45,075 bases of DNA from Minisyncoccota bacterium (lineage in GTDB: Bacteria > Patescibacteriota > Minisyncoccia > Phycocordibacterales > UBA12079), in the NCBI GenBank assembly GCA_023135835.1, contig JAGLSI010000002.1:1-45075 (forward strand), in the 5' to 3' direction. Position numbers and translations under genes: made by a program. How positions within the stretch are numbered: position 1 is the first letter of the stretch; each line of letters starts with the position of its first letter. The notes under the pieces are model-generated. The model worked only from the letters and a program-made list of their open reading frames with translations, did no database searches and was not told where the DNA came from. Shown here one piece after another: positions 20,909 to 44,737 of the stretch.

Positions 20909-21780
20909 TTATAACTAAACTACAAGGGGGTCTAGGAAATCAAATGTTCCAATATGCTATTGGGCGGGTTTTAGCTGAAAAAAATAAAGCTGAATTGAAG
21001 CTCGATACCTCTTGGTTTGATAATATCAAAGGGAACACTGCTCCTCGCAAATATGGACTTGGAATTTTTAATATTTTAGAAAATATTGCAACCAATAAGG
21101 AAATAGAAAATTTAAAAAAATACAAAAAGAAAAATAATTGGAAATACTTTTTTCATAATTTATTTTTTGCAAATAATTCAATTTATATTTCAGAAAAACC
21201 AAAATATTTTAATAAAAAAGCTCTGGAAAATAACAACAAGGATATTTATTTAGACGGATATTGGCAAAACGAGAAATATTTTAAAGACATGGAAAATATA
21301 ATTCTAAAAGAATTTAGAATTAGGGAAACATACCAAGTTGAAAATAAAACTTTATTAAATGATATAATAAATTCTAATTCAGTTTCTATTCATATTCGCA
21401 GAAATGATTATGTTCAAAACAAAAAAACAAATGAGGTCCACGGAGTTTGTACAATAGGTTATTATCAAAAAGCTATTCAAAAAATATCTAAAAATAATGA
21501 TGATATTCATATTTTTGTTTTCTCCGATGATATTTTGTGGACCCAAAATAATTTAAAATCTAATTTCCCGATAACTTTTGTTGATAAAAATAAAGATTAT
21601 GAGGATTTAATCTTAATGAGTATGTGTAAACATAATATCATTGCTAACAGCTCATTCAGTTGGTGGGGAGCTTGGCTAAACCAAAACCCAAATAAAATTG
21701 TAATTGCCCCTAAAAAATGGTTTAATAATTTAAAAAATAATAAACAAAATCCAATCCCGCAAACATGGATACAAATATAG
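20905..21780 (+). CDS. GT11 alpha-1,2-fucosyltransferase-like
   Basis: GGLGNQMFQYA, HIRRNDY, FVFSDD and NSSFSWWGAWL are the four GT11 motifs. Confidence 0.8.
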   Translation: MIITKLQGGLGNQMFQYAIGRVLAEKNKAELKLDTSWFDNIKGNTAPRKYGLGIFNILENIATNKEIENLKKYKKKNNWKYFFHNLFFANNSIYISEKPKYFNKKALENNNKDIYLDGYWQNEKYFKDMENIILKEFRIRETYQVENKTLLNDIINSNSVSIHIRRNDYVQNKKTNEVHGVCTIGYYQKAIQKISKNNDDIHIFVFSDDILWTQNNLKSNFPITFVDKNKDYEDLILMSMCKHNIIANSSFSWWGAWLNQNPNKIVIAPKKWFNNLKNNKQNPIPQTWIQI

Positions 21781-21840
21781 AGATAAACATACCAACCTGT
21801 CTGCAGGCAGGTATACGAATAATACAAATGCAACAAATAA
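21776..21840. repeat. Gene-junction repeat, filled-site copy carrying a 24-nt insertion
   Basis: The sequence matches 10059-10099 but is interrupted at 21793-21816 by caacctgtctgcaggcaggtatac. The tetranucleotide atac is present on both sides. Confidence 0.7.
21795..21812. repeat. GC-rich palindromic element, short form (acctgtctgcaggcaggt)
   Basis: This is a 9+9 palindrome with one mismatch. Its core CCTG(T/C)CTG-CAGGCAGG equals the 20-mer at 31874 without the central CCGG. It lies 16 nt upstream of the GT2 ATG. Confidence 0.8.
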
Positions 21841-22883
21841 CAACAAATAAAAAACCGGTTGTAACAGTCTTAATGCCTGTTTATAATGGCGAAAAATATT
21901 TAAAAGAAGCTATTAATAGTATTCTTAATCAAACCTTTAATGATTTTGAATTTTTGATAATTAATGATGGCTCTACTGATAAAAGCGAGGAAATAATTTG
22001 TTCATATAAAGACCTAAGAATTAAGTTAATAAATAATGAGGTTAATCTAGGGATTATTAAATCTTTAAATAAAGGTATTGATTTAGCGAAAGGAAAATAC
22101 ATTGCTAGAATGGACGCAGATGATATTAGTCTACCTAAAAGGCTAGAAATTCAAGTAAAATTTATGGACAAAAATCCACGAATTGGTATTGCTGGATCTT
22201 GGGCGAAAGTTCTAGAAAACGGAAAAACCCAAAAATATGCAAAAATAATCTCCGACCCAGAAAAAATAAAAATCACTCTGCTGTTTAGGTGTCTATTAAT
22301 TCATCCATCAATAATAATAAGAAAAAATCTTTTAGAAAAAAATAATTTAAGATATAATCTTAATCACGAACATGCAGAAGATTACGGTCTGTGGAACAAC
22401 GCTGTTAAATGTTTCCCAATAACAAACATTAAGAATGCTTTAATTCAATATAGAATTCATGACTCTAACACCAGCAAAATTCAATCTATTAAGCAAAAAA
22501 AGACAATTACTCAACTAAGAACTACTCTACTGAAAGACAATCTTAACATCACGCCAACAGAAGAAGATCTCTTAATTCATAGAGAGGTATACAAACCAGA
22601 AGATTATAAAACTAATGATTTTCTCAAAAAAGAAGAGCTTTGGCTGTCTAAGTTAATAGAACAAAACAAAATAACAAATTTTTACAAAGAACCTATATTT
22701 TCAGAAACGATTTCTCAAAGGTGGTTGCAAATATGCAGTGTAAACTCAAATCAAGATTGGGAAATTTGGAAAATACTTTGGAAATCTCCGCTACGAAGAA
22801 AATTAAATTTTAAAGACTGGAGAAATTGGGATACTTTAATTCGTTTTTTTCTTAAGTGTCTTATAAAAAAAATGCAAAAATAG
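21828..22883 (+). CDS. GT2 family glycosyltransferase
   Basis: VTVLMPVYNGEKYL...LIINDGSTD...ARMDADDIS. The start is taken at the ATG (MQQITTNKK), and the track ORF extends upstream through the palindrome. Confidence 0.8.
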   Translation: MQQITTNKKPVVTVLMPVYNGEKYLKEAINSILNQTFNDFEFLIINDGSTDKSEEIICSYKDLRIKLINNEVNLGIIKSLNKGIDLAKGKYIARMDADDISLPKRLEIQVKFMDKNPRIGIAGSWAKVLENGKTQKYAKIISDPEKIKITLLFRCLLIHPSIIIRKNLLEKNNLRYNLNHEHAEDYGLWNNAVKCFPITNIKNALIQYRIHDSNTSKIQSIKQKKTITQLRTTLLKDNLNITPTEEDLLIHREVYKPEDYKTNDFLKKEELWLSKLIEQNKITNFYKEPIFSETISQRWLQICSVNSNQDWEIWKILWKSPLRRKLNFKDWRNWDTLIRFFLKCLIKKMQK

Positions 22884-24726: not shown

Positions 24727-25593
24727 ATGAAAGAACAAAAAGAAAATAAACTTGAATCTTTAAAAGAAATATCTATGATTTGTGCCAATTATGGCAATCA
24801 TGAAAACTTAAAAGATGTTCTTTTAGATTGGTTTGAATTTTTAGGGGGAAAACCTGCCGAGGTAATTATTATGGATGCTGGAAGTGATAAAAATACCAAA
24901 AAAGCTTATCTTGAGTTATTAGAACAGGGATTAATAGATACTTTATCACTAAATAAAGAAAATCATCCAGAAAAAGGAAAAGAGTTTGCTCATATACGAG
25001 AGTATAATGTGGCTAATTTAGCCCGCAAAAAATATCTATTATTTTTTAAATTTGATACCTTACCTTATTGCCAAAAAAACGATAATTGGTTGGAAACAGC
25101 CATTTTCTATCTTGATAAGGAAGATATTTTTGCCTTTGGAGGATCTTCTAATTATAAAGCTAAACATCATGACGCTTGGAACAACTACTATTTTAGCGAC
25201 AGATTAAGTGAAAATTTTGCTCTTATAAAAAGAGACACTCACACAAAAGCGATGAGAGAATACGCTGGGGATTTTATTGATTCTGGTTTTAGAAAACATA
25301 ACCCCGACCCAAACCAAAGAAGAACTGTTGAAGTGGCTTGGGAAAAATATATTCAAAATCATCAAGTTTATACTTTAATGAAAGAAGAAGATGAAAATTG
25401 GACTGTATTTCACACAAATATAAACGGGGAAAGACTAAAACAACAAAGAAAAAGATATAAAGAAAGAATTGGAACTAAAAAATATCTAAATGCAGGATTA
25501 TACGCTGAAAGAGAAAATAAATGGTTTTATGGACAAAAAACTAATCTTAAAAAGAAGACAAAATCTATCCTAAAAAAAATATTTAAAAATTAG
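24727..25593 (+). CDS. Hypothetical protein, possibly a GT-A fold glycosyltransferase
   Basis: EVIIMDAGSDKNT and FFKFDTLPY loosely resemble GT2 nucleotide-binding and DxD regions. The C-terminus is lysine-rich. The ATG is at 24727 (the track start is TTG). Confidence 0.3.
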   Translation: MKEQKENKLESLKEISMICANYGNHENLKDVLLDWFEFLGGKPAEVIIMDAGSDKNTKKAYLELLEQGLIDTLSLNKENHPEKGKEFAHIREYNVANLARKKYLLFFKFDTLPYCQKNDNWLETAIFYLDKEDIFAFGGSSNYKAKHHDAWNNYYFSDRLSENFALIKRDTHTKAMREYAGDFIDSGFRKHNPDPNQRRTVEVAWEKYIQNHQVYTLMKEEDENWTVFHTNINGERLKQQRKRYKERIGTKKYLNAGLYAERENKWFYGQKTNLKKKTKSILKKIFKN

Positions 25594-26335
25594 AATTACT
25601 TCTAATTTTGTGTTTTCTATGTAAAAAATATTTATTTCTTCTTGAGTCTCCTTTCATATAAACAAAATTTAAATTATTTTTCCAAGCTACATAATTAAAA
25701 CTAAGTTGATCACGACGGCTATGATTTTTTATTTCACTCCACCAATCTTCCATTGTTTTGATAACATCTTTTTTGTTATGCCTTCTTAAAAGAATCATCC
25801 CAACAATCAAACCGTTATTTTCAGGATAATTCTCATTTCTATATTTTTCTATCTGACCTTTAATTAAATCAATATTATCTTTATATTTTCCATTTCTTTC
25901 AAATTCAATTAAGTTTTCAGCTTCATCATAAATACAATCACGGCAATCTTCTTTATTTTTTATCCAGAAAAGCTTTTTCCATCTTCTTTTATGTTGGTTA
26001 TGACTAAAAACAGCTAAATTAATCTTACTTGGAAACCCGGTTTCCAAGTATTTTTTAATCAATTTATTTACATCTCCCCTAACTAAAAGATTTCCATCAA
26101 CCCAAATACTAATTTCATATTCAGATAAAAACTTATGAGGAAGAACTTTATAAATCTTTGCGTTTCTTACAGGATCTTCAAATTCTGGCTCTACTTTTTT
26201 TATCTTCCAAACATCTGAAACAAAATTTTGATCAGTAAAACATACAAAATCACAACCTTCTGGAATAAATTCTGGTTCAATTAGATTATCTTTACCTCCA
26301 AATATAGAAGTATAAATTACAATTTTATTTTTCAT
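25583..26335 (-). CDS. DUF616-type putative glycosyltransferase
   Basis: IVIYTSIFGGKDNLIEP...AKIYKVLPHKF...RRDQLSFNYV matches my recollection of DUF616 signature blocks. Confidence 0.55.
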   Translation of the reverse strand: MKNKIVIYTSIFGGKDNLIEPEFIPEGCDFVCFTDQNFVSDVWKIKKVEPEFEDPVRNAKIYKVLPHKFLSEYEISIWVDGNLLVRGDVNKLIKKYLETGFPSKINLAVFSHNQHKRRWKKLFWIKNKEDCRDCIYDEAENLIEFERNGKYKDNIDLIKGQIEKYRNENYPENNGLIVGMILLRRHNKKDVIKTMEDWWSEIKNHSRRDQLSFNYVAWKNNLNFVYMKGDSRRNKYFLHRKHKIRSNSNF

Positions 26336-29933: not shown

Positions 29934-30966
29934 TTATTATCTTTACTAATTCCTTCCCTAAGGTTTCAAGAGTACATTTTTGCATAAACTTATTATAACT
30001 ATTTTGGGCCAATTTTTCTCTTAATTCTCTATCTGCTTTTAATTTAAGGATAGCTTTAGCCAATTCTTGAGGATTTGCTGCAGGGACTAAATACAAATCA
30101 TCATCATTGAATAATTCCCTCACTGCAGGAGTATCAGCAGTAATTACAGGTTTCTTCATAGATACATATTCGTAAACTTTATGAGGAATAACTCTTTGAG
30201 TTTTATTTGTATCACCAAATATACCTAAACAAAGATCTGCTTGTGAAATATAATCAGGTAATTTTTCATAAAGAACATCATTTATGAAATTAACATTTAA
30301 AAAACCCTTCTTCTCATGAGTTCTCTTAATACGAGAACTTACAATATTGAATTGAATATCTTTATTGTCTTCAAGTAATCTTGCCGCCTCTAATATAAAA
30401 ATAACACCTTGCAATGGGACAATATTACCCTGATGCTGAATAATAAATTTAGTATTTTTTATAATAGGTTTTGGTTTAAAAAAACGAGTATCTGTTCCTA
30501 AAAGAACCTTAACAAATTTTTCTTTTTTTAAACCAAACTCTTGAACAAAATAATTGATATGTTCATCAGTATCTAAAATAACTTTATCCACTAATTTACA
30601 AGATAACCAATCTGTAAACCAAAAATATTTAGCTTTTAATCCTTCTTTTTTTGTATTTTTCCTATCAAAAACAGTTGAATCATAAATAGAAACAAGGGCA
30701 TCAAAAATTATTAATTTTCTAGTTAAAAATCTAGAAAGAATTGCAGCATGCCAACCCGGGAAAGCTACCAACAAAACATCGTATTCTTTGCGAATTTTCC
30801 AATGCTTTTTTATTAAATCAAAATATTTTATTACCCCTTTTAATTCAGTGCGACATTCTATAATATTGGCTCCATTCTCTTTTAATCCTAAAACAAGGGT
30901 TCTGCTACGAGAATAATTTGGGTCATATCTTCCAAAAAAACAAACTATTAATTCTTTATTTTTCAT
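29917..30966 (-). CDS. GT-B fold (GT1/GT4-like) glycosyltransferase
   Basis: HKVYEYVSMKKPVITADTPAVRELF is a C-terminal GT-B nucleotide-sugar-binding motif. Confidence 0.6.
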   Translation of the reverse strand: MKNKELIVCFFGRYDPNYSRSRTLVLGLKENGANIIECRTELKGVIKYFDLIKKHWKIRKEYDVLLVAFPGWHAAILSRFLTRKLIIFDALVSIYDSTVFDRKNTKKEGLKAKYFWFTDWLSCKLVDKVILDTDEHINYFVQEFGLKKEKFVKVLLGTDTRFFKPKPIIKNTKFIIQHQGNIVPLQGVIFILEAARLLEDNKDIQFNIVSSRIKRTHEKKGFLNVNFINDVLYEKLPDYISQADLCLGIFGDTNKTQRVIPHKVYEYVSMKKPVITADTPAVRELFNDDDLYLVPAANPQELAKAILKLKADRELREKLAQNSYNKFMQKCTLETLGKELVKIINEIQS

Positions 30967-32090
30967 TGTATTTTTTGATAAATAGAAATAACTTTTTTAA
31001 TTAAGTCTTCTAAATTATGATCTCTGCGAACAATTTCTCGCAATCTTTTTTCAATCTTTACCCTATCTCCATCAGATAGTTCTATTATTTTAGATACCTT
31101 TTTAGCCAAATCTTCACTATCTTTTGATTTAAAAAACAATTTATCCTTATACTCTTCAAAAACATTTCTTGAGGAATCATTACTTGAAATTGTTATTATC
31201 TCACAAGCCATTGCTTCTAAAATAACTTTATCTAAACTTCCTGTTTGACTCATGTTTACAAATAAATCAGCTTGATTTAAGTGATTAACAATATCTTTAT
31301 GAGAAACCGAACCCATAAAGTTTATATTTTCCTCCAAAGATTCATCTTTAATTTTTTGTTTTAATTTGCTTAAATAATCATCTTGATCAGGTAATCCTAT
31401 CTCTCCAATAATATCCAAATTAACATTTTGATTTTTTATTTTTAAAATTTTAATAGCATTAATCAGAGTTTCATAATCTTTAATAGGAGAAATTCTTCCC
31501 ACAGTAATCATTTTAAATTCTTCATTAGCTTTACGAACCTGCCTACCGGCAGGCAGGCTTTTTGACTTTATGAACTTTTGACTCGGTATCCCATGCCCTG
31601 TTATATTCAATTTTTTAGTTTTTAAACGAAAAGATTCTCTTGTTCCAGAAAAAATAGTATGCGTTAATTTTTCAGCTACTCTCAACTTAAAATCAACAGA
31701 TTTATGCATATACCAAAGCCCTATCTTTTTTCCCATTATTCGCCAAAATAAACCTCCTAAAATAACATATTCGGGGTTCATGTGTACAAACACATTGTCA
31801 TAATTATTTTTTTCAGACCAAATATATCGGTAAAAATTAAAGAGATACTTTTTCTTACTTTCAACTTTATGGACCTGCCTGCCGGCAGGCAGGCTTTCTG
31901 ACATTTGACTAGAAAGTTCTTTTCCCAAGGAAAGAACTTTCACATTTCTAGGTAAATCATATTCCCCAACACTCAAAGCAATCACTGTTACCTTTTCACA
32001 ATGTTTGGCAAATTCAATAACCCAGTCATGAAAAAAACCAAGCACATCATCATTTTTATCTATTTTTTGTGTAAGAATTAATAATTTCAT
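30963..32090 (-). CDS. GT4-like glycosyltransferase carrying two in-frame palindromic-element insertions
   Basis: VGRISPIKD...NMSQTGSLDKVILEAMACEIITIS. The ATG is at 32090 (MKLLILTQ). The peptide SLPAGRQV is encoded twice, by the palindromes at 31538 and 31874. Confidence 0.7.
   Translation of the reverse strand: MKLLILTQKIDKNDDVLGFFHDWVIEFAKHCEKVTVIALSVGEYDLPRNVKVLSLGKELSSQMSESLPAGRQVHKVESKKKYLFNFYRYIWSEKNNYDNVFVHMNPEYVILGGLFWRIMGKKIGLWYMHKSVDFKLRVAEKLTHTIFSGTRESFRLKTKKLNITGHGIPSQKFIKSKSLPAGRQVRKANEEFKMITVGRISPIKDYETLINAIKILKIKNQNVNLDIIGEIGLPDQDDYLSKLKQKIKDESLEENINFMGSVSHKDIVNHLNQADLFVNMSQTGSLDKVILEAMACEIITISSNDSSRNVFEEYKDKLFFKSKDSEDLAKKVSKIIELSDGDRVKIEKRLREIVRRDHNLEDLIKKVISIYQKIQ
31538..31557. 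repeat. GC-rich 20-bp palindromic element (cctgcctaccggcaggcagg, one mismatch)
   Basis: Read directly from the sequence. It lies inside the GT4 ORF and has conserved flanks of about 9 nt shared with the copy at 31874. Confidence 0.9.
31874..31893. repeat. GC-rich 20-bp perfect palindromic element (cctgcctgccggcaggcagg)
   Basis: Read directly from the sequence. It lies 336 nt (112 codons) from the other copy, in the same reading frame. Confidence 0.9.
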
Positions 32091-32146
32091 TGACTTTTTT
32101 TTTAGATAATATATTATTAAAGTAATCACCAACGGAAAAGATCACC

Positions 32147-32668
32147 CTACAAGGTACCGTCCTTGTGGGGTCTTTTCTTTTTATATGAAAGTAAATTCTC
32201 TAAATCATTCATATATCTCAAATATTTACGAAATATTTTAAATTTAAGTAAGGCCGAAAACTTTAAACGATTAGGAATCATTACTACTTTTAATTTATTT
32301 TGTTTAAGTAAGTAGGAAACTAAACAATGAAAATCTCCATCTCCAATAACTATCAAAGCTTTATCAAAATTAGAATATTCAATCATTGATTGTAAAACTA
32401 ACTCAGCGTCAACATTTCCTTTCATAGTTCCGTCTTTATATTCTAAAGTAGGCTTAAAGATACAAATAAAGCCTACTTCTTGTAAAAATTTATATAATTC
32501 ATCATTTCCTTTTACATACCCTATAAACAAGAAAGCTTTATTTACCTTATATTTTTCTTTTAAATATATTCTAAATCGTGCAAAATCTAATTTCCAACCT
32601 AATGCTAAAATACTTAAATTTAAATTTTGACTATCTATAAATGCATAATTATTTTCTTTCTTCTCCAT
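32147..32668 (-). CDS. NYN (LabA-like, PIN-related) domain protein, paralog 2
   Basis: YAFIDSQNL, GNVDAELVLQSM and LIVIGDGDFHCLVSYL. The C-terminus KKKRPHKDG parallels KKKRPLNG of paralog 1. The ATG at 32668 lies 2 nt after the AbrB-like stop. Confidence 0.75.
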   Translation of the reverse strand: MEKKENNYAFIDSQNLNLSILALGWKLDFARFRIYLKEKYKVNKAFLFIGYVKGNDELYKFLQEVGFICIFKPTLEYKDGTMKGNVDAELVLQSMIEYSNFDKALIVIGDGDFHCLVSYLLKQNKLKVVMIPNRLKFSALLKFKIFRKYLRYMNDLENLLSYKKKRPHKDGTL

Positions 32669-32670
32669 AT

Positions 32671-32850
32671 TTATTTTTTCCAATCTTTTATAATTATCCT
32701 TTCTTTTTTATCATCAACTTCTACCTCAAGTTTTTGAAATTTTTGCCAACCTAAACCTCTAATTACCTCAATAGGCAAAGTAACAAAATAAGTAGGTCCA
32801 TTTTTTGATAATTTTCTTATATTTCTATCTTCTAATTTTCTTCTAGCCAT
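32671..32850 (-). CDS. AbrB/MazE/SpoVT-type small DNA-binding protein (59 aa), not in ORF track
   Basis: Hand translation: MARRKLEDRNIRKLSKNGPTYFVTLPIEVIRGLGWQKFQKLEVEVDDKKERIIIKDWKK. The YFVTLPIEVIRGLGW...L.V.V pattern is the looped-hinge-helix motif. Confidence 0.6.
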   Translation of the reverse strand: MARRKLEDRNIRKLSKNGPTYFVTLPIEVIRGLGWQKFQKLEVEVDDKKERIIIKDWKK

Positions 32851-44539: not shown

Positions 44540-44584
44540 TACCCAGCACCACTTTTCTTAAATTAAGAAAAGTGGTGCTGGGTA
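44540..44584. repeat. 45-nt perfect palindrome (22+1+22) flanked by direct repeats actcgt
   Basis: tacccagcaccacttttcttaa a ttaagaaaagtggtgctgggta. The hexamer actcgt is at 44535-44540 and 44586-44591. Confidence 0.85.
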
Positions 44585-44662: not shown

Positions 44663-44663
44663 G

Positions 44664-44737
44664 CGCGACCGAAGGGACTCGAACCCTCAACCTCTCGCGT
44701 GACAGGCGAGTGCTCTAACCAGTTGAGCTACGACCGC
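44664..44737 (-). tRNA. tRNA-Asp (GUC)
   Basis: Hand-folded cloverleaf: GCGGTCG TA GCTC AACTGGTTA GAGC A CTCGC CTGTCAC GCGAG AGGTT GAGGG TTCGAGT CCCTT CGGTCGC G. No CCA is encoded. Confidence 0.9.

What the first reader, a model, noticed from the sequence alone, without database searches (positions are those of the whole stretch)
31529..31902. GC-rich 20-bp palindromic elements inserted in frame, twice, inside a glycosyltransferase ORF (RPE-like behaviour)
The sequence CCTGCCTGCCGGCAGGCAGG occurs as a perfect copy at 31874-31893 and with one mismatch at 31538-31557. Both lie in a gene that is otherwise very AT-rich. The copies are 336 nt apart (exactly 112 codons). Both are read in the same frame and both encode SLPAGRQV.

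About 9 nt of flanking sequence on each side is also shared (ctttaYgRa ... ctttYtgac), giving a unit of about 38 nt. The ORF stays open. The inserts fall after SLGKE in the N-terminal half and just before EEFKMITVGRISPIKD at the inter-domain junction, which are plausible surface loops.

This resembles Rickettsia palindromic elements, which are known to colonise coding sequences in frame. I do not know of an equivalent description for this kind of genome. The 10-bp all-G/C-dominated stems would also form very stable mRNA hairpins within a coding region.
Basis: partly seen in the sequence, partly recalled or inferred. Interest (0 to 1): 0.72.

Follow-up and report, generated by a model that had tools for sequence, protein, structure and literature searches.

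The report
Widespread 20-base palindromic insertion element
Two copies of a 20-base perfect palindrome sit in frame in two flexible loops of a sugar-transferase gene, and the same 20 bases occur as a clean, discrete insertion in hundreds of unrelated bacterial and phage sequences, which points to a tiny mobile DNA element I could not find described in the literature searched.

Summary
CCTGCCTGCCGGCAGGCAGG lies at 31874-31893 (perfect) and 31538-31557 (one synonymous mismatch), inside a minus-strand GT4 gene. Both copies are read as SLPAGRQV.

Both are real insertions. A gene whose first ~500 nt are about 80-92% identical lacks exactly the palindrome plus one base. Every other homologue except a 99% twin lacks the 7 residues. 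AlphaFold places both inserts in the only two low-confidence coils.

The shared ~9-nt flanks are not part of the element. They are pre-existing host sequence, short CTTT-N-GA tandem units, also present in orthologues without the palindrome.

The same 20-mer is widespread:
- At least 120 loci in species-representative genomes, from Bacteroidota isolates, Patescibacteria, Planctomycetota, Omnitrophota and others.
- 48 phage-contig stretches, against 0 for each of two matched control palindromes.
- At least 120 metagenome loci.
- No full-length copy in E. coli genomes, PLSDB plasmids or cultured phages.

Outside the 20 bases no flank position is conserved. It inserts without target duplication into tRNA genes, into other palindromes and into itself. 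In SecA and TrpRS it sits in frame as exactly +7 residues. Copies also lie inside ArgRS and ClpB-like reading frames.

The mechanism is unknown. A REP-like hairpin mobilised in trans is my best guess.

The parts
31874..31893 (.). Copy B: perfect 20-nt palindrome CCTGCCTGCCGGCAGGCAGG (site 1, N-terminal domain loop)
   Evidence: Exact match with 0.00 expected by chance. It is absent from the L399 gene, whose first ~500 nt are about 80-92% identical.
31538..31557 (.). Copy A: same palindrome with one mismatch (CCTGCCTACCGGCAGGCAGG on +; GGT on the coding strand, synonymous) (site 2, inter-domain linker)
   Evidence: It is absent from orthologue L412, which has the same flanking KSK|IYK sequence. 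The G8A/C13T form is a common allele elsewhere, at 15 of about 58 phage-contig sites.
30963..32090 (-). Host gene: GT4 (Glycos_transf_1) glycosyltransferase of 375 aa with a GT-B fold
   Evidence: Pfam Glycos_transf_1 at 1.7e-29. AlphaFold model with pLDDT 87.5. Foldseek hits to HepE, BshA and PimA with TM-scores around 0.7-0.76.
31872..31895 (-). Codons AGC CTG CCT GCC GGC AGG CAG GTC = SLPAGRQV (residues 66-73)
   Evidence: Translation. It falls within the pLDDT<50 coil at residues 62-74.
31536..31559 (-). Codons AGC CTG CCT GCC GGT AGG CAG GTT = SLPAGRQV (residues 178-185)
   Evidence: Translation. It matches the pLDDT<50 coil at residues 178-185.
31894..31910 (+). Pre-existing host tract of CTTT-N-GA units to the right of copy B. 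It includes the extra T at 31899 (A on the coding strand), which turns the 20-nt insertion into a net +21 nt.
   Evidence: L399 has CTTTCGACAT where the window has CTTTCTGACAT, and it has no palindrome.
31856..31873 (+). Pre-existing host tract to the left of copy B (ACTTTCAACTTTATGGA). It encodes (V)HKVES.
   Evidence: The same tract (ACTTTCGACTTTATAGA) is present in L399 without the palindrome. The same unit type flanks the core in many metagenome contigs.
31558..31582 (+). Host tract to the right of copy A: CTTTTTGAC TTTATGAA CTTTTGAC. This is a local repeat of the same unit type. It includes an 'empty-site-like' junction TTTATGAA|CTTTTGAC.
   Evidence: Sequence, motif scan, and orthologue L412, which has TCAAAA|ATCTATAAA without the palindrome.
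21796..21811 (.). Third, degenerate relative: CCTGTCTGCAGGCAGG (core without the central CCGG, 1 mismatch). It lies at the 5' end or upstream of a GT2 gene, next to a 10-nt tandem repeat.
   Evidence: (expected 0.00).

Best explanation
The two 20-mers are copies of a discrete, 20-nt, perfectly palindromic insertion element, CCTGCCTGCCGGCAGGCAGG, with a common allele ...CCGGTAGGCAGG. The element is dispersed across many bacterial phyla and phage contigs.

**Shown**
- The unit that moves is exactly the 20 bases.
- It lands without target-site duplication.
- It is found preferentially in locally repetitive or hairpin-forming DNA: short tandem repeats, apices of other palindromes, itself, and tRNA loops.
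- It is mostly intergenic.
- When it survives inside a gene, the frame has been restored to a net +21 nt. It is then translated, almost always as LPAGRQ, as a 7-residue loop.

**In this GT4 gene**
- Copy B was inserted at a GA^CTTT unit boundary of a pre-existing AT-rich tract that encodes SKVYKVES in the sister gene. A 1-nt insertion 5 nt away fixed the frame.
- Copy A lies in an analogous tract 336 nt away with the same +1 arrangement.

**Inferred**
- Copy A arose either by a second insertion or, about equally likely, by short-homology copying (template switch or gene conversion) from copy B.
- The peptide is a tolerated passenger in two surface coils, not an adaptation of the enzyme.
- Spread is by a trans-acting activity working on a single-stranded hairpin. 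This would be REP/RAYT-like or IS200/IS605-like (Y1/HUH) chemistry, or a structure-specific cut-and-ligate of the extruded hairpin.
- Sequence constancy is maintained by that recognition and/or by arm-to-arm correction.
For: **Non-chance and specific**
- Shuffles expect 0.00 matches.
- Phage contigs hold 48 stretches with the 20-mer, against 0 and 0 for two composition-matched control palindromes.
- No full-length copy in 28 Gb of E. coli genomes, PLSDB plasmids or cultured phages.

**Discrete 20-nt unit**
- No flank position is conserved across 126 copies.
- Clean 20-nt insertions without target duplication occur in tRNA genes. L052 can be compared with the intact tRNA-Lys 300 nt away. L163 and L021 are further cases. 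L152 carries it in the tRNA-Met variable loop and is still called as a tRNA.
- Nested self-insertions and insertions into other palindromes occur.

**Empty site for copy B**
- The first ~500 nt of the L399 gene are about 80-92% identical. In the ~430-nt alignment that also includes L401 (mean column identity 91%), the only internal indel is at the palindrome.

**Flanks at site 2 are ancestral**.

**Only the 99% twin, among 120 homologues, has the peptide**.

**Loop placement**
- The only pLDDT<50 segments are residues 62-74 and 178-185.

**Generality of in-frame +7 aa**
- Alignments to solved structures show exact 7-residue gaps in TrpRS and SecA.
- Copies also lie inside long reading frames of ArgRS (the same site in two orthologues about 60% identical), a ClpB-like protein, a class II aaRS, PMT_2 and EamA.
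- All 7 coding copies in the flank-unbiased AT-rich sample use the LPxGRQ frame. Only 8-15% of copies lie in long ORFs.

**Repetitive or hairpin context**
- Left and right flanks share direct repeats in 22% of copies against 8% of controls (p 9e-9).
- Inverted repeats occur in 14.5% against 6.6%, and internal repeats in 36% against 18%.
- In AT-rich contigs the core sits at GA^CTTT boundaries of CTTT-N-GA arrays, as in the window.

**Hairpin / Y1 plausibility**
- A frequent asymmetric allele keeps a G.T wobble on one strand.
- In the sister genome L411, a Y1_Tnp gene (Pfam 29.4 bits, above the cut-off of 23) is flanked by a second palindrome family. Its best NCBIfam match, 'REP-associated tyrosine transposase', is below that model's cut-off. 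The same family also inserts in frame in this GT loop (L412) and in another gene of this window.
- In L047, an IS200-family transposase ORF starts about 20-35 nt after a core copy.
Against: - No gene family is recurrently linked to the core. Y1 transposases occur in only 3 of about 400 loci. All-against-all clustering of neighbouring ORFs finds nothing consistent.
- The element lacks the terminal GTAG/CGTC tag of classical REPs (PMC3733652).
- Base-for-base identity across phyla is not what REP/RAYT systems show.
- Copy number per genome could not be measured. It looks low here: 2-3 copies in 45 kb, and 0 in 21 kb of the sister genome.
- The strand of the G.T allele shows no significant bias relative to gene orientation (27:17, p 0.17).
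- At site 1 an alternative alignment is possible: one 21-nt indel plus two substitutions. The '20 + 1' reading there leans on the tRNA cases.
- A minority of copies are flanked by 7-9-nt direct repeats. These could be target duplications rather than insertions into tandem repeats.
- The conservation seen in orthologous pairs is partly an ascertainment effect of exact-match searching.
Confidence: 0.55

Rival explanations
1. There was a single insertion followed by intragenic copying. Only copy B was inserted. Copy A was then created by template switching or short-homology gene conversion between the two similar host tracts (GTCARAAAG...TYCRTAAAG), which lie 336 nt apart. This rival concerns only the origin of copy A and is compatible with the main explanation.
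For: - Both copies have the same unusual arrangement: an 8-nt TCA[G/A]AAAG where empty sites have 7 nt, then the core, then TYCRTAAAG.
- They use the same frame and differ inside the core by one synonymous transition.
- Two independent 20-nt insertions would each need its own +1 correction at the same relative place.
- Elsewhere, copies within one genome share longer flanks (L045, L118, L148).
Against: - The flanks at site 2 are ancestral and could simply be a preferred target.
- In many unrelated contigs the core sits at the same GA^CTTT boundary, so independent insertion at two such boundaries is plausible.
- Site 2 has TCAAAAAG, not TCAGAAAG.
Confidence: 0.4
2. The 20-mer is a functional cis-site. 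It would be the binding site of a conserved protein (parS-, operator- or NBS-like), or an RNA or terminator hairpin. Its identity across phyla would then reflect selection on a conserved partner, not mobility.
For: - Palindromic 16-20-bp sites such as parS are conserved across phyla and can lie inside genes (established knowledge).
- ParB-like genes lie within 400 nt of the core in 5 loci.
- Copy A followed by CTTTTT scores as terminator-like on the antisense strand.
- The core stays perfect at the same site in diverged orthologues.
Against: - The copies are discrete 20-nt insertions into tRNA genes, into each other and into essential enzymes. Sites do not evolve that way.
- They are depleted from coding DNA and carry no consistent neighbouring gene.
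- The ParB adjacency is not significant once the number of gene families is considered.
- Most copies lack a T-run.
Confidence: 0.1
3. The element is an RPE-like, lineage-specific unit of about 38 nt (palindrome plus flanks) that proliferates within this genome.
For: - About 9 nt of flank is shared on each side.
- Many AT-rich metagenome contigs show the core with similar CTTTATGGA / CTTTTGAC flanks.
Against: - The flanks exist without the core in orthologues at both sites.
- The same flank units also exist as core-less arrays elsewhere.
- The net insertion is +7 aa, not +13.
- Outside this flank class the core has unrelated flanks.
Confidence: 0.05
4. Spread is driven by host repair and needs no dedicated enzyme. 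The palindrome extrudes as a hairpin or cruciform. Ordinary structure-specific nucleases and ligase excise and re-insert it. Alternatively, it is copied between short tandem-repeat arrays by microhomology-mediated repair.
For: - No linked gene was found.
- The core prefers tandem repeats and hairpin apices.
- There is no target duplication.
- Tandem 21-nt amplification occurs in L166, and nested forms exist.
Against: This does not explain why this one sequence, and not the matched control palindromes, is the one that spreads. It also does not explain the taxonomic restriction.
Confidence: 0.15
5. The 20-mer is an assembly, adapter or chimera artefact.
For: Most hits are in metagenome assemblies.
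Against: - The same two copies appear in an independent assembly.
- The 20-mer is present in isolate genomes (Winogradskyella, Flagellimonas, Olivibacter, Longitalea, Flavivirga) and in a curated complete genome.
- It is kept in frame with compensating changes.
- Allelic variants exist.
- It is absent from 28 Gb of E. coli assemblies.
Confidence: 0.01

Closest known systems
REP/BIME elements and their RAYT (Y1/HUH) transposases
   Same: - Short (20-40 nt), G+C-rich palindromes.
- Mostly extragenic.
- Occasionally inside ORFs (PMC3733652).
- No target duplication.
- Thought to be mobilised in trans as single-stranded hairpins.
- Often nested in or next to one another.
   Different: - There is no GTAG or CGTC tag at an end. 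GTAG appears only internally, in one allele.
- The sequence is identical across phyla, rather than specific to a species.
- No REPtron was found for it. Y1 genes are rare near copies.
- High copy number per genome was not shown.
Rickettsia palindromic elements (RPE)
   Same: Palindromic repeats that insert in frame into protein-coding genes, including essential ones. They are tolerated as extra surface peptide segments.
   Different: To my knowledge, RPEs are roughly 100-150 nt, are confined to Rickettsia and form genus-specific families. Here the unit is 20 nt (+1), encodes 7 residues, and is shared by many phyla and phage contigs.
GC clusters of yeast (and other fungal or sponge) mitochondrial genomes
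   Same: G+C-rich palindromic mini-elements scattered in a very A+T-rich genome. They are mobile, sometimes sit in frame inside genes (var1), and are associated with A+T-rich repeats. This comparison rests on established knowledge.
   Different: They are organellar, longer (about 30-60 nt), diverse in sequence and lineage-restricted. No relationship in sequence.
Bacterial MITEs (Correia/NEMIS, RUP, ERIC, Nezha)
   Same: Non-autonomous, dispersed, hairpin-forming insertions that can be co-transcribed or translated.
   Different: MITEs are 50-300 nt, with terminal inverted repeats and target-site duplications derived from an identifiable IS family. None of these features holds here.
parS-type centromere sites
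   Same: A 16-20-bp palindrome conserved across phyla, found both between and inside genes.
   Different: To my knowledge, parS sites evolve in place and number a few per genome near the origin. The 20-mer appears as a discrete insertion in tRNAs, enzymes and other palindromes.
PARCEL (palindromic amphipathic repeat coding elements; PMC2996958)
   Same: DNA-palindromic coding repeats distributed horizontally among diverse microbes. This is based on the paper's title and abstract.
   Different: To my knowledge, PARCELs are much longer coding repeats that form tandem intragenic arrays of surface proteins. They are not 20-nt dispersed insertions.

Membership tests
REP (repetitive extragenic palindrome) | Short (about 20-40 nt), G+C-rich, imperfect palindrome able to form a hairpin | tested here: met
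   A 20-nt palindrome with 80% G+C. Folding gives a 9-10-bp stem.
REP (repetitive extragenic palindrome) | GTAG or CGTC tetranucleotide at one end (PMC3733652) | tested here: not met
   The ends are CCTG and CAGG, and no flank base is conserved. GTAG occurs only internally, in the C13T allele.
REP (repetitive extragenic palindrome) | Association with a RAYT gene flanked by the repeats (REPtron) | tested here: inconclusive
   Y1_Tnp genes occur in 3 of about 400 loci, one of them adjacent (L047). No REPtron was found for this 20-mer. A REPtron-like unit exists for a different palindrome family in L411. Whole genomes could not be scanned.
REP (repetitive extragenic palindrome) | High copy number within a genome, with species- or genus-specific sequence | tested here: not met
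   The same 20-mer occurs in at least 8-10 phyla. There are 2-3 copies in this 45-kb window and 0 in 21 kb of a sister genome. The genome-wide count is not measurable with these tools.
REP (repetitive extragenic palindrome) | Predominantly extragenic | tested here: met
   Only 7 of 83 and 18 of 119 copies in AT-rich loci lie inside ORFs of 200 aa or more.
Rickettsia palindromic element (RPE) | In-frame insertion into ORFs with the frame kept open | tested here: met
   Seen in the GT4 gene (two sites). TrpRS and SecA show exact 7-aa inserts against solved structures. Copies also lie inside the open frames of ArgRS and a ClpB-like protein.
Rickettsia palindromic element (RPE) | Element of about 100-150 nt belonging to the RPE sequence families of Rickettsia | tested here: not met
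   The unit is 20 nt. The hosts are Patescibacteria, Bacteroidota and others.
MITE | Terminal inverted repeats flanking an internal region, with a total length of 50-300 nt | tested here: not met
   The whole element is two abutting 10-nt arms. No solitary half-sites bracket longer DNA.
MITE | Target-site duplication | tested here: not met
   None is seen in the four tRNA cases or at the L399/window empty/filled pair. TSD-like repeats of 6 nt or more occur in 2.8% of copies. I attribute these to insertion into tandem repeats.
IS200/IS605-type single-strand transposition (works-like, not membership) | Hairpin recognition, no target duplication, insertion next to a short specific target | tested here: inconclusive
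   The hairpin and the absence of duplication are met. There is only a weak preference at the junction, with T depleted at -1. No strand bias was detectable.
parS / protein-binding palindrome | Few sites per genome that arise in place and are linked to a cognate binding-protein gene | tested here: not met
   The copies are discrete insertions. ParB-like genes lie near 5 copies, which is not significant after multiple testing. No canonical parS was found in those loci.

The most novel reading that the evidence does not exclude
CCTGCCTGCCGGCAGGCAGG is an ultra-minimal mobile element. It is 20 nt long, with no internal region, no target duplication and no linked gene. It has crossed phylum boundaries (Bacteroidota, Patescibacteria, PVC, Omnitrophota, phages). 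Its sequence is kept constant by the machinery that moves it, or by a function of the hairpin itself. It can settle in tRNAs and essential enzymes as a self-contained hairpin or 7-residue loop. This would make it the smallest and most widely shared transposable unit known in bacteria, with a mechanism distinct from classical REP/RAYT.
Probability: 0.4. Interest if true: 0.9.

Novelty: new variant of a known kind. Interest (0 to 1): 0.8.

Why it matters
**If the 20-mer really is a mobile unit shared across phyla**
- It sets a new lower bound for what can behave as a transposable element.
- It implies a widespread trans-acting activity that recognises one specific hairpin, or a hairpin function conserved across phyla.
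- It would give a simple marker for tracing DNA exchange among poorly cultured lineages (CPR, Omnitrophota, Planctomycetota) and their phages.

**Practical consequences**
- It produces recurrent 7-residue inserts (LPAGRQ) in essential proteins, and extra arms in tRNAs.
- These can confuse annotation, alignment-based phylogeny ('signature inserts') and tRNA detection.

**For this window**
- It explains two odd G+C spikes and two disordered loops in an otherwise ordinary glycosyltransferase.

Tried and rejected
**Chance or low-complexity explanation: rejected**
- Two composition-matched control palindromes gave 0 hits in IMG/VR, against 48 stretches for the target.

**Simple intrinsic-terminator convergence: rejected**
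- I considered it because the stem followed by a T-run resembles a terminator.
- Most copies lack T-runs and many lie inside genes or tRNAs.

**Cis-encoded enzyme: nothing consistent found**
- I clustered ORFs within 1.5 kb of the core, then across whole loci.
- I ran phmmer with two Y1 transposases and with ParB.

**Footprint of a larger transposon with 10-nt ends: rejected**
- Solitary half-sites do not bracket longer DNA.

**Other tests**
- Strict tandem periodicity of the flanks was too stringent. K-mer sharing did show the enrichment.
- Strand bias of the G.T allele relative to gene orientation was not significant.
- Rfam matched no family at the core copies. It found only tRNAs, one group I intron, Flavo-1 and Acido-Lenti-1, none of them at a core.
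- Literature searches for the sequence, for the LPAGRQ peptide and for concept terms found no description.
- A 14-mer half-plus-centre scan was too unspecific in G+C-rich phage contigs to measure decay.
- A second palindrome family, TTGGAARCCSGGYTTCCAA, is absent from IMG/VR. The breadth seen here is therefore specific to the CCTG family.
Full report
**1. The observation**

The pattern CCTGCCTGCCGGCAGGCAGG matches the window twice: 31874-31893 (perfect) and 31538-31557 (one mismatch). Dinucleotide-preserving shuffles give 0.00 expected matches. The window averages about 29% G+C, and these two sites top a scan for G+C-rich 20-nt windows.

Both copies lie in the minus-strand ORF 30963..32132, with a probable Met start at 32090. 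It encodes a 375-aa Glycos_transf_1/GT4 protein in a long cluster of glycosyltransferase and methyltransferase genes. Both are read as SLPAGRQV, and the single mismatch is a synonymous GGC->GGT. The flanks are similar, at 7/9 and 8/9 identical. On the mRNA strand the sites fold into 9-10-bp G+C stems (-15.4 and -16.6 kcal/mol). An independent assembly from another sample (L401) shows identical sequence at both sites.

**2. Are they insertions?**

Among the 120 best homologues, only the 99%-identical P0001 contains any LPAGRQ-like peptide. In the protein alignment both sites fall in length-variable linkers. At site 2 most orthologues are exactly 7 residues shorter.

The decisive comparison is L399, the P0014 gene from a Pacebacteria-like MAG. 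Its first ~500 nt are about 80-92% identical to the window gene. In the alignment of the gene's first ~430 nt, the only internal indel is at the palindrome:
- L399: ...ATGTCGAAAG|TCTATAAAG...
- Window: ...ATGTCAGAAAG[20-mer]TCCATAAAG...

This is the 20-mer plus one extra A located 5 nt upstream, with no duplicated target.

At site 2, orthologue L412 has ...AAATCAAAA|ATCTATAAA... where the window has ...AAGTCAAAAAG[20-mer]TTCGTAAA.... The '9-nt shared flanks' are therefore ancestral host sequence, not part of the inserted unit. The net gain at each site is 21 nt, or 7 residues.

An AlphaFold model built on the orthologue alignment has mean pLDDT 87.5. Its only segments below 50 are residues 62-74 and 178-185, which are the two inserts, and both are coil. 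The model has the GT-B fold of GT4 enzymes such as HepE, BshA and PimA. Site 1 lies between two helices of the N-terminal domain. Site 2 lies in the inter-domain linker.

**3. The same 20 bases elsewhere**

| Collection | Pattern searched | Result |
|---|---|---|
| IMG/VR phage contigs | same | 48 stretches, about 58 sites |
| IMG/VR phage contigs | control palindrome GGACGGAYGGCCRTCCGTCC | 0 |
| IMG/VR phage contigs | control palindrome CCAGCCARCCGGYTGGCTGG | 0 |
| E. coli genomes (28 Gb) | BLAST, 40-nt query containing the core | no match |
| PLSDB plasmids (7.3 Gb) | same | no full-length copy |
| Cultured phages (2.3 Gb) | same | no full-length copy |

By record title, the 120 genome loci break down as follows:
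- Bacteroidota: 41, including isolates of Winogradskyella, Flagellimonas, Olivibacter, Longitalea and Flavivirga.
- Patescibacteria: 30, including a curated complete WWE3 genome.
- 'Delta'/Bdellovibrionales-type: 11.
- Planctomycetota/PVC: 9.
- Omnitrophota: 8.
- Uncultured Gammaproteobacteria: 8.
- Nitrospirota: 3.
- Chloroflexi: 2, Ignavibacteria: 2, others: 6.
- No record title names Firmicutes, Actinobacteria or Archaea.

**4. It is a discrete 20-nt unit**

Across 126 copies no flank position is conserved. The only signal is a depletion of T at -1.

Several tRNA genes give exact empty/filled comparisons:
- In L052 a duplicated 5' fragment of tRNA-Lys reads GTGGTAGA[20-mer]GCAGCGGC. The intact tRNA-Lys 300 nt away reads GTGGTAGAGCAGCGGC.
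- L163 has GGTA[20-mer]GAGC in a D-loop. A group I intron (Rfam) lies about 650 nt downstream.
- L021 is similar.
- L152 carries the 20-mer in the variable loop of a tRNA-Met. ARAGORN and Rfam still call it, as a 92-nt tRNA.

None of these shows a target duplication.

Other contexts:
- The element is found inserted into itself (cctgcctgccg[20-mer]gcaggcagg in L026, L059 and others).
- It is inserted into the centre of other palindromes (L113, L308, L350).
- It sits at the apex of longer, genome-specific hairpins (L036, L111, L114, L148).
- It is amplified as a 21-nt tandem array in L166.

In the IMG/VR scans the canonical sequence dominates, with 42 sites. The G8A/C13T allele, which the window's copy A carries, has 15 sites. 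Four other transition positions have one single-change site each.

**5. Context preferences**

I compared 179 copies found with flank-free patterns against about 5,000 control positions in the same loci:

| Flank property | Copies | Controls | p |
|---|---|---|---|
| Direct repeats shared between left and right flanks | 22% | 8% | 9e-9 |
| Inverted repeats | 14.5% | 6.6% | 2e-4 |
| Internal repeats | 36% | 18% | 5e-8 |

In A+T-rich metagenome contigs the core sits again and again inside arrays of CTTT-N(2-5)-GA units, always at a GA^CTTT boundary. An example is CTTTTGA CTTTATGGA [core] CTTTATGGA CTTTTGA. Arrays of this kind also exist without a core. This is exactly the context of both window copies, and of the core-less tract in L399. 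Other genomes show other 6-9-nt units around the core.

**6. Coding copies**

In A+T-rich loci, only 7 of 83 (genome scan) and 18 of 119 (metagenome scan) copies lie well inside ORFs of 200 aa or more. That is a strong depletion compared with the high coding density typical of bacterial genomes. All 7 in the flank-unbiased set use the LPxGRQ frame.

The host genes include:
- SecA.
- TrpRS.
- ArgRS, at the same site in two orthologues whose flanks are only about 60% identical.
- A ClpB-like AAA protein.
- A class II aaRS.
- A PMT_2 transferase.
- An EamA transporter.

Alignments to solved structures show a gap of exactly 7 residues opposite GLPAGRQ in TrpRS, and 7 residues in SecA. Net +21 nt is therefore seen in every case that could be aligned. 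In orthologue L400 of the window's own GT, the same loop carries a degenerate 21-nt core, CCTACCTCGCCGGCAGGCAGG. Here the extra base lies inside the palindrome, and the core is flanked by TTTTCAA tandem units.

**7. How it most likely works**

Shown:
- The unit is a discrete 20 nt, inserted without duplication.
- It prefers repetitive or hairpin DNA.
- It is depleted from coding DNA, and frames are restored by a net +21 nt (a separate 1-nt change where resolved).
- It is translated as a loop.

Inferred:
- Mobilisation is in trans, because no gene is recurrently linked.
- The most plausible route is a single-stranded hairpin intermediate of the REP/RAYT or IS200/IS605 type. The reasons are the absence of target duplication, the hairpin itself, the nesting, and an abundant allele that keeps a G.T wobble on one strand.

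Circumstantial support:
- In the sister genome L411, a Y1_Tnp protein (Pfam 29.4 bits against a cut-off of 23) is bracketed by perfect copies of a different palindrome, TTGGAAGCCGGGCTTCCAA. Its best NCBIfam match, 'REP-associated tyrosine transposase', is below that model's cut-off. One more copy lies inside the gene.
- That second family also sits in frame, as LETGFPS, in the same GT loop of L412 and in another gene of this window at 26026-26050.
- In L047, an IS200-family transposase ORF starts about 20-35 nt after a CCTG-family core.

Against:
- Y1 genes occur in only 3 of about 400 loci.
- The terminal GTAG/CGTC tag of REPs is missing (PMC3733652).
- REPs are not conserved across phyla.
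- No strand bias was seen.

Copy A may be a second insertion, or a short-homology copy of copy B. The identical '+1, core, TYCRTAAAG' arrangement favours the latter. The recurrent GA^CTTT target favours the former.

**8. Comparison with what is known, and novelty**

The behaviour matches the general class of REP, RPE and mitochondrial-GC-cluster elements. These are G+C-rich palindromes that disperse and can be tolerated in frame. Membership of REP, RPE or MITE fails on defining features (see the membership table).

Full-text searches for the sequence, for the LPAGRQ peptide and for several concept queries found no description. The library searched is incomplete, so prior description cannot be excluded.

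I classify it as a new variant of a known kind. There is a substantial chance that the cross-phylum, gene-less, 20-nt unit represents something mechanistically new.

**9. Verdict**

Its central idea, in-frame palindromic insertions in surface loops, is right. Its unit definition and RPE analogy are only approximate. The finding is much bigger than the window: one specific 20-mer is spread across phyla and phages. The mechanism remains unproven.

Noticed in passing
window 26026-26050: A second, unrelated palindrome family is present. The 25-nt perfect palindrome TACTTGGAAACCCGGTTTCCAAGTA lies in frame (YLETGFPSK) inside the TOD1/MUCI70-like gene 25583..26335 (-). The same family encodes LETGFPS in the GT loop of orthologue L412. 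It also brackets a Y1_Tnp gene in L411 (6386, 6611, 7081). It is absent from IMG/VR.
   Followed up: partly
window 21796-21811: A degenerate 16-nt relative of the finding's palindrome (CCTGTCTGCAGGCAGG) lies at the 5' end of, or upstream of, GT2 gene 21765..22883. It is followed by the 10-nt tandem repeat CAACAAATAA at 21831-21850.
   Followed up: partly
window 30963-32090 versus L399 3001-4062: The GT4 gene is mosaic. Its first ~500 nt are 79-92% identical to L399, and the rest only 56-73%. The breakpoint falls near site 2, the inter-domain linker that carries copy A.
   Followed up: partly
window 32147-32683: A NYN-domain (PIN-like nuclease) gene lies directly upstream of the GT4 gene. This position is conserved in L400, L401 and L412. 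In L399 it is replaced by a PemK toxin, and in L401 a MazE-like gene precedes it. It looks like a toxin-antitoxin-type slot inside the glycosyltransferase cluster.
   Followed up: no
window 44540-44584: A 45-nt perfect palindrome, TACCCAGCACCACTTTTCTTAAATTAAGAAAAGTGGTGCTGGGTA, lies about 80 nt from tRNA-Asp (44663-44737).
   Followed up: no
window 32144-32171: A terminator-like hairpin (ACCCTACAAGG...CCTTGTGGGGT followed by a T-run on the + strand) lies between the NYN and GT4 genes. Both genes are on the - strand, so it is antisense to them.
   Followed up: no
L052 2103-2480: In a complete WWE3 genome, a small GIY-YIG-like ORF (judged by eye, not tested) lies between a duplicated 5' fragment of tRNA-Lys, which carries the 20-mer, and the intact tRNA-Lys. 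L163 shows a similar tRNA 5' fragment with the 20-mer, and a group I intron about 650 nt downstream.
   Followed up: partly
L166 3925-4142: A tandem array of at least 11 copies of a 21-nt derivative of the core (CCATGCCTACCGGCAGGCAGG) lies at the end of a phage contig.
   Followed up: no
L093, L003, L069, L153, L164: ParB-like genes lie within about 400 nt of a core copy. L093 has three copies just upstream. No canonical parS was found in those loci. The association is not significant after allowing for the number of gene families.
   Followed up: partly
L021, L022, L046, L055, L014; L057, L073, L092, L104: Other short perfect palindromes recur in unrelated genomes: TCCGCCAGCTGGCGGA, and TCCCGATAGCTATCGGGA or a close variant. 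The core is also often inserted inside the widespread CCCTCTCC..GGAGAGGG..GGGGTGAGG repeat (L146, L147, L098, L076, L017).
   Followed up: no
L305 7565-7618; L311 4814-4840; L329 1143-1178: Arrays of 9-nt units (GACTTTATG and variants) occur without any palindrome, apparently outside long ORFs, in A+T-rich contigs that appear to be Patescibacteria-like. Their nature is unknown. They are the preferred landing context of the 20-mer in these genomes.
   Followed up: no
L412 640-800 (P0005 gene, site 1 loop): The same GT loop in another orthologue carries two different 25-nt palindromes: CACTTGGAAACCGGGTTTCCAAGTG and CACTTGGACGCGACGCGTCCAAGTG. This loop is therefore a recurrent landing site for several palindrome families.
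   Followed up: partly
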